A stretch of 64,000 bases of DNA from an uncultured Actinomycetes bacterium (lineage in GTDB: Bacteria > Actinomycetota > Thermoleophilia > RBG-16-64-13), in assembly GCA_963814365.1 (NCBI GenBank), contig CAWFCL010000004.1, positions 1,034,660 through 1,098,659 on the forward strand, in the 5' to 3' direction. Shown here in pieces: positions 2,241-49,982 of this stretch (the first letter of the stretch is position 1; the number at the start of each line of letters is the position of its first letter). The notes beneath the pieces were generated by a model. The model was not told the DNA's origin. It ran no database searches and saw only the letters and a list, made by a program, of their open reading frames with translations. Both the position numbers and the translations under genes were made by a program.

Positions 2241-3779
2241 CTAGCACAGAGACCTTCCTGTCATCTCCTCCGGGGTCTTCAGCCCCAACAATCCCAGTAT
2301 GGTCGGGGCGACGTCGGCCAATCCCGCCCCTTCTCGAAGGCGCAGCCCCTCCTGCAGCACCACGAGTGGCACCTTACCGCCGCTATGCGCAGTGTTCATG
2401 GCGCCTTCGGCGTCGAGCATCCGCTCGGCATTCCCGTGATCCGCAGTCACCATGACGCTTGCCCCGGCATTGTGAAGTACCGCAACGACCTCTCCAAGAC
2501 ATCTGTCCACATGACCCACCGCTTCGATAGTGGCCGGAATGTTGCCGGTATGCCCGACCATGTCTGTGTTCGCAAAATTGAGAACCACGAAATCTACCGG
2601 ATCGACCGCCATGATGTCCCGGAACGCCTCAACCACCCCGTAGGCGCTCATGGCAGGTTTCTGGTCATACGTCGCCACATCTTTGGGAGATGGCACCAGC
2701 TTGCGACGTTCGCCCGGGAATGGCTCTTCGATGCCACCATTGAAGAAGAAGGTGACATGCGCGTACTTCTCTGTCTCTGCGATGTGCAATTGCGTAAGCC
2801 CCGCGTCACTTATGACTTGCGCAAGTACGTTGCACGGTTCCTCTTTGGGGAAGGCGACCACTAACCCTAGAGACACCTCGTACTCCGTCATACCCACAAA
2901 GTCTATCTTCGCTCTGGCACCACCGCGGTCAAATCCGCCGAACTCATCCTGAGTAAGCGCCTCTGCCAACTCACGCGCGCGATCTGGTCGGAAGTTGAAG
3001 AACACGACTCCATCGCCGTCGGCGACTCTGGACGCTTCATCTGCACAACAGATGGTAGGTTTGATGAACTCGTCGGTCTCCCCGCGCGCGTATGAGGACT
3101 CGACCGCACCCACGGCGTCCGGCGCGATCAGACCCTCCCCATGGACCAAAGCGTCGTATGCCAACTTGACCCTATCCCAACGCGTATCTCGGTCCATTGC
3201 GAAGTACCGCCCACTAACGGTGGCGATCTCGCCAAGACCCACGGCCCGCATGAACTGCTGCGCTTGCGCCACATACTCACTGCCTGAGGTGGGCGAGGTA
3301 TCACGGCCGTCGGTGAAGGCATGGACGTAGACTTTGTCCAGTCCATGATCTCGCGCCATCTTGATAAGAGCTTCTAAGTGGCGGATATCCGAATGAACCC
3401 CCGCGTCCGACAGCAGGCCCATAAGGTGCAACGAGCGTCCCCGTTCGCGCACGCCTTTCATGAGCTGCGACAGCGCAGCGTTGCGAAAGAAGCTGCCATC
3501 CTGCACAGCGCGGTTGATGCGCGAAAGGTCTTGCAGGATGACTCGCCCGGATCCAAGGGTCAGATGCCCGACTTCCGAGTTGCCCATAACACCTGCGGGC
3601 AACCCCACCGCCTCGCCGCTCGCCTCCAGAAGAACGTGCGGATACCTTTCCCACAAACTATCCCAGTTTGGTTTTTCTGCAAGCGCTATTGCATTTCCTG
3701 GACCCGGATCAGCGTAGCCCCACCCGTCCAGCACTATCAAAGCGGCACGACGTCCCGATGAAAGGGTGAGCCCTGCCAC
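2241..3779 (-). CDS. gpmI: 2,3-bisphosphoglycerate-independent phosphoglycerate mutase
   Basis: iPGM-type sequence (LIVLDGWG..., SEVGHL, ...TADHGNAE). The ORF runs to 3890 but overlaps tpiA. GTG at 3779 lies 4 nt after the tpiA stop and gives a typical ~512 aa. Confidence 0.9.
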   Translation of the reverse strand: MAGLTLSSGRRAALIVLDGWGYADPGPGNAIALAEKPNWDSLWERYPHVLLEASGEAVGLPAGVMGNSEVGHLTLGSGRVILQDLSRINRAVQDGSFFRNAALSQLMKGVRERGRSLHLMGLLSDAGVHSDIRHLEALIKMARDHGLDKVYVHAFTDGRDTSPTSGSEYVAQAQQFMRAVGLGEIATVSGRYFAMDRDTRWDRVKLAYDALVHGEGLIAPDAVGAVESSYARGETDEFIKPTICCADEASRVADGDGVVFFNFRPDRARELAEALTQDEFGGFDRGGARAKIDFVGMTEYEVSLGLVVAFPKEEPCNVLAQVISDAGLTQLHIAETEKYAHVTFFFNGGIEEPFPGERRKLVPSPKDVATYDQKPAMSAYGVVEAFRDIMAVDPVDFVVLNFANTDMVGHTGNIPATIEAVGHVDRCLGEVVAVLHNAGASVMVTADHGNAERMLDAEGAMNTAHSGGKVPLVVLQEGLRLREGAGLADVAPTILGLLGLKTPEEMTGRSLC

Positions 3780-45334: not shown

Positions 45335-45347
45335 AGGAAAGTGAAGG

Positions 45348-45420
45348 AGCGGAGTACGGGGTTCGAACCCGCGACATCCAGCTTGGGAAGCTGGCACTCT
45401 ACCAACTGAGTTAACTCCGC
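45348..45420 (-). tRNA. tRNA-Gly (anticodon CCC), CCA not encoded
   Basis: Hand-folded: acceptor GCGGAGU/ACUCCGC, D-arm ACUC/GAGU, anticodon loop UUCCCAA, T-loop UUCGAAC, discriminator U. Confidence 0.93.
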
Positions 45421-45558
45421 TCGCAGATTGCTTCTTCAAGCGTTTCGGATGATAACACACAGGCCAGCATGCTAGGGTCCGCTGCAAGCGTACGTCTCTC
45501 CGCTCTGAACAGATGCACCCACCGACTTTTTTGTTCAGTGCCTTGCCCCCCAAGGGGG

Positions 45559-45586
45559 TTGACATGGCAACCATTCCAGATAGAAT
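45559..45586 (+). promoter_or_regulatory. Strong sigma-70/SigA-type promoter of the candidate sRNA
   Basis: TTGACA (45559-45564), 16 nt, TAGAAT (45581-45586). Confidence 0.65.
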
Positions 45587-45591
45587 CATTA

Positions 45592-45750
45592 GCAGAGTCC
45601 CGAGAGTTCAGACGCAGTGTCTGAGGAGTTCACAAAGGGGCCCGCTGAGGAACCGCGGAGACAAATGGCCGCGCAGTACAGAGAAGCGGGAACAAAGTGA
45701 AGGCCGTTATCAAGACGCAAAGCGAGTTCACTCGGGGCTCGCTTTTTTTT
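45592..45750 (+). ncRNA. Candidate structured small RNA (unassigned family)
   Basis: Starts ~6-8 nt after TAGAAT and ends in GCGAG...CUCGC plus U8 (45743-45750). A 10-bp closing helix pairs 45595-45604 with 45731-45740, and internal hairpins are present. There is no plausible CDS. Confidence 0.55.
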
Positions 45751-45795
45751 GCGCACCATATCGCTCTGAGGCCTTCTGCACCCTCGGTGCTCTCT

Positions 45796-46617
45796 CTAGC
45801 CTTGACACCCCGGACAGTATGAAGTGCCCCGCCCCGCCACAACTGTCCGCACGAAGGTATCTCCGCACCTGCCACAGGCTTGGCCCTGCTTTCCGTATGC
45901 CCGCAGCCAGTTCTGGAAGTCGCCCTGTCGACCCATGGTGTCCACGAAGTCTGACAACGAGCAACCTAGGAACTTGACCCCTTCGCCCAGCCGAGTGCGG
46001 ACCTCCTCGGCCAACTTCGCCGTCTCATCCTGAGCCAATGACCCACAGGATCTGAGTGGAGATAGCCCCGTCCACCAGAGGATCTCGTCTGCGTAGATAT
46101 TGCCGATACCAGCAATATGCCTTTGATCGAGCAGAAACGCTTTCAGCGGTGCGACACGCCCGTGAAGGAGCCCTCTGAGATAGCCGGCGTCCCAGTCCCC
46201 CTTCCACGCGTCGGGCCCCAGACCGCCAAGCCTAGGCGCGGGAGACCCCAGGGTGAAGTGAAGCCGGCCGAATTTGCGGATGTCCCGGAACTCGAGCTTG
46301 ACCTCGTCCCCGTGCCCGCCCGATAGTCTGAAGTCGAACCGCGCATGCCGGCTAGTATCGTCGGGGTCGATGAGTAGCTGACCCGTCATGCCCAGGTGAA
46401 GTGTGACGAACGCCTCCCCAGCCAATTCCATGATGATGAACTTGCCCAACCGCTCTACCGATTTGATCGTCCTGCCCGGCAGCCCCGTCACTACCTCAGG
46501 CGAGGTGCAATCCCGCAACATGGCAGGCTCTGTCTGTCCGACGGCCGTAAACTCCATGCCAAGCAACCGGTTATGTAACTGGCATCTGACCGTTTCCACC
46601 TCAGGCAACTCCGGCAT
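45796..46617 (-). CDS. mutM: Formamidopyrimidine-DNA glycosylase
   Basis: N-terminus MPELPEVE and C-terminal zinc finger CGRCG...YCPGCQ. ATG 46617. The track ORF extends to 46671. Confidence 0.93.
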   Translation of the reverse strand: MPELPEVETVRCQLHNRLLGMEFTAVGQTEPAMLRDCTSPEVVTGLPGRTIKSVERLGKFIIMELAGEAFVTLHLGMTGQLLIDPDDTSRHARFDFRLSGGHGDEVKLEFRDIRKFGRLHFTLGSPAPRLGGLGPDAWKGDWDAGYLRGLLHGRVAPLKAFLLDQRHIAGIGNIYADEILWWTGLSPLRSCGSLAQDETAKLAEEVRTRLGEGVKFLGCSLSDFVDTMGRQGDFQNWLRAYGKQGQACGRCGDTFVRTVVAGRGTSYCPGCQG

Positions 46618-49478: not shown

Positions 49479-49691
49479 GGCGTTGATTCTAGCCGAATCG
49501 ATGCCAGCGAGTCGGACGTCAGTCGAGTGTCACCCCGAAAGTTCACCGGCCAGCGAGAGCACGAGATGACCAGTGTGTGAACACAACCCTTGACAGTTGG
49601 TAGCCCCAGCACCCACAATACCCAGGAGCCCTCCTCGGGGCGACGAGGATGGCTTGGTTCGGTTGGACGAGAATCATCAAAACCCGGAGGG

Positions 49692-49982
49692 ATGTTTATG
49701 CTCCACGAGCCCGCACAAGTAGAACACCGGGCAGACGAGGCCGCCGCCTACAAGCAGCGTCTTGGCCTCATCAATCTGGCTGTCTACAGCGTTATCTACA
49801 TTGCCTTCATCATCATCAACGTCGCTTGGCCCAAGACCATGGGGACTATCGTCGTGGCGGGTCTGAACCTCGCGATCATCTACGGCTTCGCCCTGATCGT
49901 GATCGCGTTGATCCTGGCGCTCGCCTACAACTGGGCTTGCACCAGGCATGAGAAGTCGTTCGAGAAAGAGGAGAAGGCCTGA
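49692..49982 (+). CDS. DUF485 (YjcH-like) inner-membrane protein
   Basis: 96 aa with two TM helices, immediately upstream of actP as in yjcH-actP. ATG follows GGAGGG. The track ORF starts at 49590. Confidence 0.85.
   Translation: MFMLHEPAQVEHRADEAAAYKQRLGLINLAVYSVIYIAFIIINVAWPKTMGTIVVAGLNLAIIYGFALIVIALILALAYNWACTRHEKSFEKEEKA

What the first reader, a model, noticed from the sequence alone, without database searches (positions are those of the whole stretch)
45559..45750. Stand-alone promoter-to-terminator unit encoding a ~160-nt structured RNA of unassigned family
In the 375-bp gene-free gap between tRNA-Gly and the 3' end of mutM, the + strand has TTGACA-16 nt-TAGAAT (45559-45586). About 160 nt later comes GCGAG...CUCGC followed by T8 (45743-45750). 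The T-run is on the + strand only, which fixes the orientation. The interval folds convincingly by hand. GAGUCCCGAG (45595-45604) pairs with CUCGGGGCUC (45731-45740) as a 10-bp closing helix. There is a hairpin CAGAC/GUCUG (45609-45613 / 45619-45623). A long bulged arm is built from UUCAC/GUGAA (45629-45633 / 45697-45701), CCCGCU/AGCGGG (45641-45646 / 45685-45690) and CGCGG/CCGCG (45654-45658 / 45669-45673). GAGUUCA occurs three times (45604, 45626, 45724), AGACGCA twice (45610, 45713), and there are three exposed GGA motifs. No + strand CDS follows (the next is at 49692), so it is not a cis-leader or riboswitch. I could not match it from memory to SRP, 6S, tmRNA, RNase P or common riboswitch cores.
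Basis: seen in the sequence. Interest (0 to 1): 0.6.

Follow-up and report, generated by a model that had tools for sequence, protein, structure and literature searches.

The report
New multi-copy rod-shaped small RNA
This gap holds a real gene for a ~157-nt, rod-shaped, non-coding RNA with its own strong promoter and terminator. It belongs to an undescribed RNA family kept in one to seven copies per genome in uncultured Thermoleophilia, with more distant relatives across other Actinomycetota, and its function is still unknown.

Summary
TTGACA-16-TAGAAT (45559-45586) drives a ~157-nt + strand RNA ending in T8 (45743-45750). It matches no Rfam family, even at E<=10.

It is conserved. A covariance model finds it in 55 of 56 sampled genomes of the window's own family and in 23 genomes of a second Thermoleophilia family, at 1-7 copies per genome. 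57 of 58 copies keep the promoter at a fixed distance.

Covariation supports a six-helix rod: 14 of 34 pairs compensatory within the family and 29 of 34 across both families. Its local CAGAC/GUCUG hairpin is not: GUCUG pairs long-range instead.

The invariant core is GGAAA opposite AGUAC, which reads as a sarcin-ricin (bulged-G) module.

The closing helix (GYCCCRAG.../...CUYGGGRC plus U-run) recurs on about 60 otherwise different rod RNAs in 49 of 401 Actinomycetota genomes, against 1 control match.

It is not 6S or SRP RNA, both found elsewhere in the genome. Ro60, CsrA and Hfq genes are absent. It is not in the viral contigs and not coding.

Best guess (about 0.35-0.4): an abundant protein-binding RNA with a shared terminal "handle" and a variable body.

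The parts
45559..45564 (+). -35 hexamer TTGACA
   Evidence: TTGACN is present in 56 of 58 homologous copies, with a 16-17 nt spacer of unconserved sequence.
45581..45586 (+). -10 hexamer TAGAAT
   Evidence: TANNNT is present in 57 of 58 copies, always 8-11 nt (mostly 10) before the GYCCC of the closing helix.
45592..45750 (+). Predicted transcript, ~157 nt. The start is inferred at 45591-45594, 5-8 nt after the -10 hexamer; the end lies in the T-run.
   Evidence: BLAST conservation starts at the -10 hexamer and stops at the T-run. Covariance-model hits are full length. MFE is -60.4 kcal/mol, z = -3.2. The forward strand folds better than the reverse strand in 58 of 59 copies. The transcript ends are inferred, not measured.
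45595..45609 (+). P1, 5' strand of the closing helix. 45595-45604 is continuous; 45606 and 45609 are isolated pairs.
   Evidence: Pairs with 45726-45740. There are 125 U.G/G.U cells against 2 C.A cells over all pairs, so the pairing is RNA-level and strand-specific. G-C changes to A-U between the two families. The sequence motif GYCCCRAG is shared phylum-wide.
45726..45740 (+). P1, 3' strand of the closing helix, directly followed by CGC and the U-run.
45613..45615 (+). P2, 5' strand (CGC); pairs with 45722-45724.
   Evidence: Invariant within the family, so uninformative there. Only 69% of cells are paired across families, making this the weakest helix.
45618..45622 (+). P3, 5' strand (UGUCU); pairs with 45713-45717.
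Evidence: All 5 pairs have compensatory changes. Pair 33/143 is G-C in 32 copies and A-U in 26.
45630..45633 (+). P4, 5' strand; pairs with 45697-45700.
   Evidence: All 4 pairs have compensatory changes across the two families.
45641..45645 (+). P5, 5' strand (CCCGC); pairs with 45686-45690.
   Evidence: 4 of 5 pairs are compensatory within the family and 5 of 5 across families.
45649..45653 (+). GGAAC (family consensus GGAAA). This is the 5' strand of the invariant internal loop at the base of P6.
   Evidence: GGAA is invariant or nearly so in 59 copies and is kept in the second family and its diverged tandem copies. The reading as one strand of a bulged-G (sarcin-ricin) module is an inference from sequence.
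45654..45673 (+). P6 apical hairpin: CGCGG, a 10-nt loop (AGACAAAUGG), then CCGCG.
   Evidence: 3 of 5 pairs are compensatory within the family (GGCGG/CCGCC, CGCGA/UCGCG, UGCGG/CCGCA). The loop keeps RUAAA across both families.
45675..45679 (+). AGUAC, the 3' strand of the invariant internal loop, opposite GGAA.
   Evidence: U, A and C are invariant and G nearly so. The geometry (C pairs with the first G of GGAA; AGUA lies opposite GAA) equals the sarcin-ricin signature AGUAC...GGAAC. Inferred, not probed.
45722..45742 (+). Local stem GCGAG/CUCGC (45722-26 / 45738-42), which overlaps the 3' strand of P1. It could be a transient terminator hairpin competing with P1.
   Evidence: Found by the terminator scan. 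It is 96.6% paired in the family but has no compensatory change, and it is absent from the second family. Its status is open.
45743..45750 (+). U-run (T8) of the intrinsic terminator.
   Evidence: A T-rich run follows P1 in nearly all copies, including the distant superfamily members.
45546..45558 (.). GC hairpin CCCCCC-AA-GGGGG abutting the -35 hexamer.
   Evidence: Across 57 promoters, positions -12 to -9 are C-rich and -5 to -2 are G-rich. The weak CRISPR-repeat hits are caused by this hairpin. Function unknown.

Best explanation
Shown: window 45559-45750 is an independent gene for a ~157-nt non-coding RNA. A near-consensus sigma-70-type promoter fires 1-4 nt before a 10-13 bp helix. That helix joins the 5' end of the RNA to its 3' end and abuts a U-run. 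The body is a rod of six short Watson-Crick helices (P1-P6) separated by purine-rich internal loops.

Shown: it belongs to an undescribed RNA family kept in 1-7 chromosomal copies per genome in two families of uncultured Thermoleophilia.

Well supported: this family is one branch of a wider set of Actinomycetota RNAs that share the same terminal helix and terminator but have different bodies.

Inferred mechanism: the RNA is abundant and acts in trans as a protein-binding RNA rather than as an antisense regulator. The sequence-conserved terminal helix would be a common 'handle'. It would give termination, protect both ends, and probably offer a docking site for a shared, still unknown protein. 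The invariant GGAAA/AGUAC internal loop would fold as a sarcin-ricin-type bulged-G module and form the specific recognition surface of this branch.

Odds: real structured sRNA gene of a new family, about 0.9. Wider superfamily, about 0.75. Protein-binding 'handle plus body' mechanism, about 0.35-0.4.
For: Gene and conservation.
- BLAST finds the unit in 37 of 37 genomes of the window's family. Similarity starts at the -10 hexamer and stops at the T-run.
- The covariance model finds it in 55 of 56 family genomes plus 23 genomes of a second family, always full length, at 1-7 copies.
- A second copy lies in this genome at C5:159699-159861.
- A TTGACN-16/17-TANNNT promoter is present in 57 of 58 copies at a fixed distance, with unconserved spacers.

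Structure.
- On the MAFFT alignment, 99.4% of cells are paired and 14 of 34 pairs are compensatory; 0 of 500 shuffles reach this, and slid controls give 33-49% paired.
- Across both families, 29 of 34 pairs are compensatory and 92% of cells are paired, against 35-47% for slid controls.
- There are 125 G.U cells against 2 C.A cells, and the forward strand is the more stable in 58 of 59 copies.

Not a known RNA. There is no Rfam hit at E<=10. 6S and SRP RNAs are found elsewhere in the same genomes.

Acts in trans. There is no conserved protein-coding neighbour between the two families, and the downstream gene is mostly convergent.

Protein-binding reading.
- The most conserved residues are not a free single-stranded seed. 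They are two strands facing each other across an internal loop, GGAA(A) and AGUAC.
- Conservation spans the whole molecule, with 81% mean column identity across genera whose flanks cannot be aligned.

Shared handle.
- The terminal helix keeps its sequence on RNAs whose bodies differ, and several body types coexist in one genome: G041, G403, G556, G322 and G672.
- The pattern RYCCCRAGNRG-N40-170-RRTTWCTYGGGRY hits 49 of 401 phylum genomes, against 1 hit for the reversed control.
- All 24 weak covariance-model hits I read fold as rods with the shared closing helix, and most carry a TTGACA-type promoter and a U-run.
- In a distant family (f51) the RNA sits beside the same hpt plus 118-aa gene pair as in the window.
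Against: - Transcript ends and abundance are therefore inferred.
- No partner protein is identified. The three global RNA binders tested are absent from the carrier genomes: Ro60, CsrA and Hfq.
- There is no conserved protein-coding neighbour to point to a partner.
- The bulged-G module is read from sequence only.
- The GC-rich base of the terminal helix resembles any intrinsic terminator stem, so part of its 'conservation' could reflect termination rather than protein docking.
- Alignment A2 was fitted to the model, which inflates its pair counts.
- The superfamily rests on weak model scores (25-38 bits) plus a pattern scan. At least two pattern hits look like coding sequence.
Confidence: 0.45

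Rival explanations
1. A family of 'sibling' base-pairing sRNAs. One or more purine-rich loops (the GGAG after P3, the P6 loop, the 3' GA-rich loop) pair with pyrimidine-rich stretches of target mRNAs and change their translation or stability. The several copies would give dosage or differential regulation.
For: The RNA is stand-alone with its own promoter and terminator, occurs in 1-7 copies and has no fixed neighbour. That is the usual anatomy of trans-acting sRNAs such as LhrC1-5 or Qrr1-5. Some loops are exposed and purine-rich.
Against: No contiguous single-stranded stretch of 7 nt or more is conserved between the two families, apart from the strands of the structured GGAAA/AGUAC loop. The P6 loop varies (GGAGAC, GGAGGU, GGAAGU, GAAGGU ...). 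Conservation covers the whole rod rather than one seed. Hfq is absent. Purine-rich seeds would not pair with the purine-rich ribosome-binding sites that are the usual sRNA targets.
Confidence: 0.22
2. A decoy for the translation machinery. The sarcin-ricin-like module mimics helix 95 of 23S rRNA and titrates something that recognises it, such as a translational GTPase or an SRL-cutting nuclease of the PIN/VapC type. Alternatively, the Shine-Dalgarno-like GGAG(G) motifs hold 30S subunits.
For: AGUAC and GGAA(A/C) face each other exactly as in the loop AGUAC-GAGA-GGA of the genome's own 23S rRNA. The family consensus of the P6 loop reads GGAGGUAAAUG. A GUAC/GGRAA pairing also appears in the ~190-nt subtype.
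Against: There is no similarity to the organism's helix 95 beyond the motif core. The GGAGG of the P6 loop is not conserved: this copy has GGAGAC and the second family has GGAAGU. The conserved GGAGGAAA runs parallel, not antiparallel, to the 16S 3' end CCUCCUUUCU, so it cannot pair with it. Bulged-G modules are common building blocks of many RNAs.
Confidence: 0.1
3. A second, 6S- or Ms1-like RNA that binds RNA polymerase.
For: It is a rod-shaped RNA of 150-190 nt with paired ends, probably abundant, and B. subtilis has two 6S RNAs. The strong housekeeping-type promoter is consistent.
Against: There is no RF00013 match at E<=10. There is no large central bubble, only small purine-rich loops. 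A canonical 6S RNA is present elsewhere in this genome (63.7 bits) and in 19 of 20 other carriers, and it has no sequence likeness to this RNA. The sequence is conserved, whereas in 6S RNA it is mainly the shape that is conserved.
Confidence: 0.06
4. Not an RNA gene as such: a miniature inverted-repeat mobile element, or just a bidirectional terminator between convergent genes, or a gene for the 11-codon ORF MAAQYREAGTK (45664-45699).
For: The ends are inverted repeats. The element is multi-copy. The downstream gene is usually convergent. An ATG preceded by GGAG lies in the P6 loop.
Against: Copies within one genome are only ~80% identical. They sit in syntenic loci across genera, and even across classes. 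The pairing relies on G.U pairs, which are mismatches in DNA and on the other strand. Promoter and interior are conserved, not only the ends. There are no hits in the viral contigs. The ATG is lost in several copies (L025, L027, L028, L029 and most of the second family) and the stop codon is lost in L003. Substitutions are compensatory in helices rather than following codon positions.
Confidence: 0.03

Closest known systems
6S RNA (SsrS, Rfam RF00013) and mycobacterial Ms1
   Same: Both are stand-alone, probably abundant, 150-190-nt rod-like RNAs whose 5' and 3' ends pair. Both are conserved across a bacterial lineage, and a genome can carry more than one copy.
   Different: There is no model match. 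The large central bubble is missing. The sequence itself is strongly conserved. This RNA has its own intrinsic terminator. Up to 7 copies occur per genome. A canonical 6S RNA coexists in the same genomes.
Y RNAs / bacterial YrlA (Ro60-bound RNAs)
   Same: The logic of a sequence-conserved terminal stem formed by the two ends plus a U-tail, carried by several paralogues with different bodies in one genome.
   Different: No Ro60/TROVE gene is present in any of the 25 genomes tested. There is no tRNA-like domain and no Rfam YrlA/Y RNA match. The stem here is fully Watson-Crick, without the bulged helix of Ro sites.
Multi-copy 'sibling' sRNAs (LhrC1-5, Qrr1-5, RsmX/Y/Z)
   Same: Several paralogous promoter-to-terminator units per genome, some in tandem. 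Tandem pairs occur in the second family and in L048.
   Different: Those RNAs act through short exposed seeds or GGA loops with Hfq or CsrA. Here both proteins are absent, and the conserved residues lie in a structured internal loop.
Orphan lineage-specific structured sRNAs found by comparative genomics (e.g. raiA, Bacteroidales-1, Chloroflexi-1, Dictyoglomi-1 motifs)
   Same: A covarying structure, its own promoter and terminator, restriction to one lineage, and an unknown function.
   Different: It matches none of the 4227 Rfam models. It also has a conserved terminal helix shared by otherwise different RNAs across a phylum.
Sarcin-ricin loop / loop E (bulged-G) module of rRNA
   Same: AGUAC opposite GGAA(A/C), closed by a C-G pair. 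These are the same letters and the same strand polarity as AGUAC-GAGA-GGAC in the genome's own 23S helix 95.
   Different: Here it is an internal loop between two helices, not a hairpin loop. There is no further likeness to helix 95. The fold is inferred from sequence only.

Membership tests
6S RNA (RF00013) | Scores above the family's covariance-model threshold (46.4 bits) | tested here: not met
   No match at the gathering score or at E<=10 on 45421-45850. None on 10 superfamily loci at E<=0.1.
6S RNA (RF00013) | Large central bubble flanked by a closing stem and a terminal stem | tested here: not met
   The consensus fold is six short helices with small purine-rich internal loops.
6S RNA (RF00013) | It is the genome's 6S (no other 6S gene present) | tested here: not met
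   A canonical 6S lies at G000:C4:930125-930279, 63.7 bits. 19 of 20 other carrier genomes also have one elsewhere.
6S RNA (RF00013) | Binds the RNA polymerase holoenzyme and templates product RNAs | not testable with these tools
   Needs biochemistry.
Y RNA / YrlA | Ro60 (TROVE, PF05731) encoded in the genome, usually nearby | tested here: not met
   0 of 25 genomes have it; the controls were detected.
Y RNA / YrlA | Sequence-conserved stem formed by the 5' and 3' ends | tested here: met
   GYCCCRAG.../...CUYGGGRC is kept across families with different bodies.
Y RNA / YrlA | tRNA-like domain | tested here: not met
   ARAGORN finds only tRNA-Gly at 45346-45420. There is no Rfam match.
CsrB/RsmZ-type CsrA sponge | CsrA (PF02599) encoded in the genome | tested here: not met
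   CsrA is absent from all 9 genomes with strong matches to this RNA family (f1, f6 and G672), and present in six genomes of neighbouring families that lack the RNA.
CsrB/RsmZ-type CsrA sponge | Many GGA motifs displayed in hairpin loops | tested here: inconclusive
   There are 5-6 GGA per RNA, but most lie in internal loops or helices.
Hfq-dependent sRNA | Hfq (PF17209) encoded in the genome | tested here: not met
   0 of 36 genomes score above the cut-off.
SRP RNA (RF00169) | Model match, with one gene per genome | tested here: not met
   The SRP RNA lies at G000:C5:299977-300076 (80 bits), and elsewhere in 8 of 8 carriers. There is no match at this locus.
Riboswitch / cis-acting leader | A regulated gene follows on the same strand | tested here: not met
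   The RNA ends in a terminator. mutM, argS and the K+ channel gene are all on the - strand. The downstream gene is convergent in most loci.
raiA motif and all other Rfam 15 families | Covariance-model match | tested here: not met
   A full library scan of 4227 models found nothing at E<=10 apart from two chance CRISPR-repeat hits on the hairpin upstream of the promoter.
Miniature inverted-repeat transposable element | Near-identical copies at non-syntenic sites, with pairing that works equally at DNA level | tested here: not met
   Copies are ~80% identical and sit in syntenic loci. 125 G.U against 2 C.A cells. The covariation is strand-specific.
Small-protein gene | Conserved start, frame and stop | tested here: not met
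   The ATG of the 11-codon ORF is lost in several copies and the stop is lost in L003.
Bulged-G (sarcin-ricin / loop E) module | 5'-AGUA-3' opposite 5'-GAA-3', closed by a Watson-Crick pair, with correct strand polarity | tested here: met
   AGUAC (45675-79) faces GGAAC (45649-53). The letters are invariant or nearly so in 59 + 48 aligned copies. The same letters occur in the genome's own 23S helix 95.
Bulged-G (sarcin-ricin / loop E) module | S-turn backbone geometry with a G-bulged base triple | not testable with these tools
   Needs chemical probing or a solved structure.
Intrinsic (Rho-independent) terminator | GC-rich stem directly followed by a U-run | tested here: met
   Across the family the conserved stem is the long-range P1. 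Whether such a long-range helix terminates transcription is untested.

The most novel reading that the evidence does not exclude
Many non-Actinomycetes lineages of Actinomycetota carry a Y-RNA-like system without Ro. A sequence-conserved terminal helix plus U-tail would act as a universal handle for one unknown protein. Onto it, evolution would have grafted different bodies. The Thermoleophilia body carries a mimic of the ribosome's sarcin-ricin loop and could act as a decoy for a factor or nuclease that targets that loop. This would be a new bacterial ribonucleoprotein class and a new way of buffering the translation apparatus.
Probability: 0.12. Interest if true: 0.85.

Novelty: new member of a known kind. 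Interest (0 to 1): 0.6.

Why it matters
Actinomycetota lack the classical RNA chaperones, and few of their sRNAs have a known partner or function. This is a strongly conserved, probably highly expressed, multi-copy structured RNA that is missing from Rfam. It comes from uncultured lineages common in soils, sediments and anaerobic digesters.

The finding that its terminal helix is shared by differently built RNAs in at least 14 families of the phylum turns one orphan locus into a candidate RNA superfamily. That points to an unrecognised RNA-binding protein or RNA-protein complex. It also gives a ready covariance model and sequence pattern for annotating these genes.

If the sarcin-ricin-like module proves functional, it would tie a small RNA to the translation machinery in a way not described before.

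Tried and rejected
Known RNA families. Rfam at the gathering thresholds and at E<=10 gave only the two tRNAs and two chance CRISPR-repeat hits on the hairpin upstream of the promoter.

6S RNA. Rejected: a canonical 6S lies elsewhere, with an unrelated sequence.

SRP RNA. Rejected.

Protein partners. A Y RNA is rejected because no TROVE gene is present. A CsrA sponge is rejected because CsrA is absent from the genomes with strong matches to this family and present in neighbouring families without the RNA. Hfq dependence is rejected.

Phage or mobile origin. No hits in the viral contigs with the core pattern or the terminal-helix pattern. The syntenic, diverged copies argue against a MITE.

Coding. 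The 11-codon ORF is not conserved.

Pairing with the 16S 3' end. The conserved GGAGGAAA has the wrong polarity, and the P6-loop GGAGG is not conserved.

Extended mimicry of 23S helix 95. None beyond the motif core.

Conserved neighbour as a clue to function. None is shared between the two families. The only deep synteny is with hpt and a small 118-aa gene.

More members in the window's own genome. A relaxed regex on the whole genome found only the two known copies with promoters.

Tree of copies. Copies group by lineage more than by locus, but the context labels were noisy, so I draw no conclusion.

Literature. Three full-text searches, including one for the terminal-helix sequence strings, found nothing on this RNA.

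Full report
**What is in the sequence.** The 375-bp gap lies between tRNA-Gly(CCC) (45346-45420, - strand) and the stop of mutM/Fpg (45796, - strand).
- It contains TTGACA-16 nt-TAGAAT at 45559-45586, 11 of 12 consensus positions.
- A T8 run lies 157-160 nt later (45743-45750), preceded by a stem.
- The predicted RNA 45592-45750 folds to -60.4 kcal/mol, z = -3.2 against shuffles.
- It is 60% purine.
- The genes that follow (mutM, argS and an RCK K+ channel) are all on the other strand. The next sizeable + ORF starts near 49590-49948.

**It is conserved as a gene.**
- BLAST against 61 related genomes found the unit in 37 of 37 genomes of the same family and in none of the other families of the class. 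Similarity runs from the -10 hexamer to the T-run and no further.
- Record titles show the carriers are uncultured Thermoleophilia ('RBG_16_64_13', 'Gaiellales', 'Actinomycetota' MAGs). They come from soils, aquifer and lake sediments, permafrost and anaerobic digesters.
- The window's own genome has a second copy, 80% identical, at C5:159699-159861.
- In an alignment of 59 distinct copies with flanks, the -35 and -10 hexamers stay in register while the spacer and everything upstream and downstream is unalignable.
- 57 of 58 copies have TTGACN-16/17-TANNNT, 8-11 nt (mostly 10) before the first helix.
- The one exception (L075) has also lost its U-run and looks like a decaying copy.

**Structure.** RNAalifold on the MAFFT alignment gives a rod of six helices. 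Mapped to the window:

| Helix | 5' strand | 3' strand |
|---|---|---|
| P1 | 45595-45604 (plus isolated pairs at 45606 and 45609) | 45731-45740 (plus 45729 and 45726) |
| P2 | 45613-45615 | 45722-45724 |
| P3 | 45618-45622 | 45713-45717 |
| P4 | 45630-45633 | 45697-45700 |
| P5 | 45641-45645 | 45686-45690 |
| P6 | 45654-45658 | 45669-45673 |

- Within the family, 99.4% of cells pair and 14 of 34 pairs show compensatory changes. Slid controls give 33-49% paired. No shuffle out of 500 reaches any of the five measures.
- Adding the second family raises this to 29 of 34 pairs compensatory and 92% paired, against 35-47% for slid controls. That alignment was fitted to the model, which inflates the count.
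- G.U cells outnumber C.A cells 125 to 2, and the forward strand folds better in 58 of 59 copies. The constraint therefore acts on the + strand RNA.
It has no compensatory change and loses its closing pair in 27 of 59 copies. The same GUCUG covaries with 45713-45717, G-C in 32 copies and A-U in 26.
- The local stem GCGAG/CUCGC before the T-run is present in this family but never covaries. It is missing in the second family, where P1 itself abuts the U-run. It may be a transient terminator hairpin that competes with P1. That is open.

**Not coding, not mobile.**
- The only ORF inside the RNA (MAAQYREAGTK, 45664-45699) loses its ATG in several copies and its stop in another.
- Copies within one genome are diverged. 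About 30 of 81 distinct copies lie in the same hpt / tRNA-Gly / RNA / mutM / argS locus across genera.
- No viral contig carries the core or the terminal-helix pattern.

**Not a known RNA.**
- Rfam 15 (4227 models) gives nothing for the region at E<=10, apart from two chance CRISPR-repeat hits on a GC hairpin upstream of the -35 hexamer.
- A canonical 6S RNA (63.7 bits) lies 150 kb away and is unrelated in sequence.
- The SRP RNA is on another contig.

**Distribution.**
- Model R1, run on 301 genomes of the class, hits 55 of 56 genomes of the window's family and 23 genomes of a second family (45-98 bits, full length). It hits none of the other families. Copy number is 1-7.
- In the second family the gene usually comes as a tandem pair. 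A type A copy is followed about 80-230 nt later, on the same strand, by a strongly diverged type B copy.
- The neighbours differ between the two families. The second family has gap/pgk, a multihaem cytochrome and a lipoprotein. No protein gene travels with the RNA.

**The invariant core.**
- Across both families and both copy types, the best-conserved letters are GGAA(A) just 5' of P6 and AGUAC just 3' of it. In the window these are 45649-53 and 45675-79.
- They face each other across an internal loop. The C of AGUAC pairs with the first G of GGAA.
- This is the sequence signature and polarity of the bulged-G (sarcin-ricin / loop E) module. The genome's own 23S helix 95 reads AGUAC-GAGA-GGAC.
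- This reading is an inference from sequence. No likeness to helix 95 extends beyond the module.

**A wider superfamily.**
- Model R2 (both families), run on 401 genomes of the phylum, gave strong hits only in the two families and one further genome. It also gave 25-38-bit hits in 18 genomes of many other families.
- I read 24 such hits. Nearly all have a 5' GYCCCRAGRRG paired to a 3' (G)GRUUWCUYGGGRC and fold as a rod. Most also have a TTGACA-type promoter just upstream and a U-run right after. The interiors differ and lengths run from 75 to 194 nt.
- None matches Rfam.
- A pattern for the two helix strands found about 60 matches in 49 of 401 genomes, against 1 match for the reversed control. 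The hits cluster in at least 14 families. The large-genome families are free of them. At least two hits look like coding sequence.
- Several genomes hold two to four different body types.
- All carriers tested have separate 6S and SRP RNAs.
- In one distant, AT-rich family the RNA lies beside the same hpt plus 118-aa gene pair as in the window. This argues for common descent.
- The ~190-nt subtype has its own covarying rod, 25 of 41 pairs compensatory in nine sequences. It also places a GUAC opposite GGRAA.

**How it probably works.**
- Shown: it is an independent, conserved, structured RNA gene.
- Inferred: it is a trans-acting, abundant, protein-binding RNA. There are three reasons.
  1. Conservation covers the whole molecule, not one seed.
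  2. The invariant letters form a structured internal loop of a type that commonly serves as a protein-recognition site.
  3. The terminal helix keeps its sequence on RNAs with different bodies in the same genome. This is what a shared docking site predicts, as in Y RNAs with Ro.
- The helix also seals both ends, with a 1-4 nt 5' overhang, and with the U-run should terminate transcription.
- I put this mechanism at 0.35-0.4.
- The partner is unknown. Ro60, CsrA and Hfq are absent from the carriers.
- Rivals:
  - Base-pairing sibling sRNAs, 0.22. Weakened by the lack of a conserved free seed.
  - A decoy for the translation machinery, 0.1. The polarity is wrong for the anti-Shine-Dalgarno sequence, and there is no extended helix-95 mimicry.
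  - A second 6S-like RNA, 0.06.
  - A MITE, a bare terminator or a mini-ORF, 0.03.

**Limits.**
- The organisms are uncultured.

**Earlier notes of this scan.** Three first-reader notes in other genomes flagged the same RNA. One follow-up called a tandem pair a new multi-copy rod-shaped sRNA of Gaiellales. These agree with my reading but are not independent evidence.

**Verdict.** It is more widely rooted than the locus suggests. Its function remains open.

Noticed in passing
L106-L120 (second Thermoleophilia family), e.g. L114:3001-3160 and 2698-2868 (- strand); also L048:425-587 and 936-1098: In the second family the RNA gene nearly always comes as a tandem pair on one strand. A type A copy is followed by a strongly diverged type B copy about 80-230 nt downstream. 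Type B keeps the terminal helix, CGGAAAC...AGUACGG and P6, but differs elsewhere. One genome of the first family has two near-identical copies about 510 bp apart (start to start).
   Followed up: partly
L134-L157 and the matches (other Actinomycetota families): About 60 RNAs of 75-194 nt share the window RNA's terminal helix, and most also its promoter type and U-run, but they have different bodies. Recognisable subtypes: ~118 nt with GGAA/GGAA tandem-GA loops; ~165-190 nt with GUACCAGNAGCGGC and GUACGAAANGGGAA; and ~80-nt minimal forms. None is in Rfam.
   Followed up: partly
That pair is also found next to the distantly related terminal-helix RNA of an AT-rich family in another part of the phylum. 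The synteny of RNA, hpt and small gene is therefore deep.
   Followed up: partly
window 45546-45558: A perfect GC hairpin CCCCCC-AA-GGGGG abuts the -35 hexamer. Across 57 homologous promoters, positions -12 to -9 are C-rich and -5 to -2 are G-rich. A hairpin or G-tract just upstream of the promoter may therefore be a conserved feature (an insulator or a regulatory site). It caused the only two weak, chance Rfam hits (CRISPR repeats).
   Followed up: partly
genomes G037, G040, G042, G045, G050, G055 against G000, G019, G027, G030, G032, G041, G046, G051: Within the class, CsrA is present in six tested genomes of three families (f2, f5, f7) that lack the RNA; a seventh RNA-lacking genome (G060, f8) has no CsrA. 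It is absent from all tested genomes of the two families that have the RNA. This may only reflect presence or absence of flagella.
   Followed up: no
L075:5591-5754: One copy has no recognisable promoter and a degraded U-run (GACUUGCUCUGUCUC) but keeps the body. It is probably a decaying paralogue.
   Followed up: no
G000:C4:930125-930279 (outside the window): The genome's canonical 6S RNA is short (155 nt against a 187-position model) and scores 63.7 bits.
   Followed up: no
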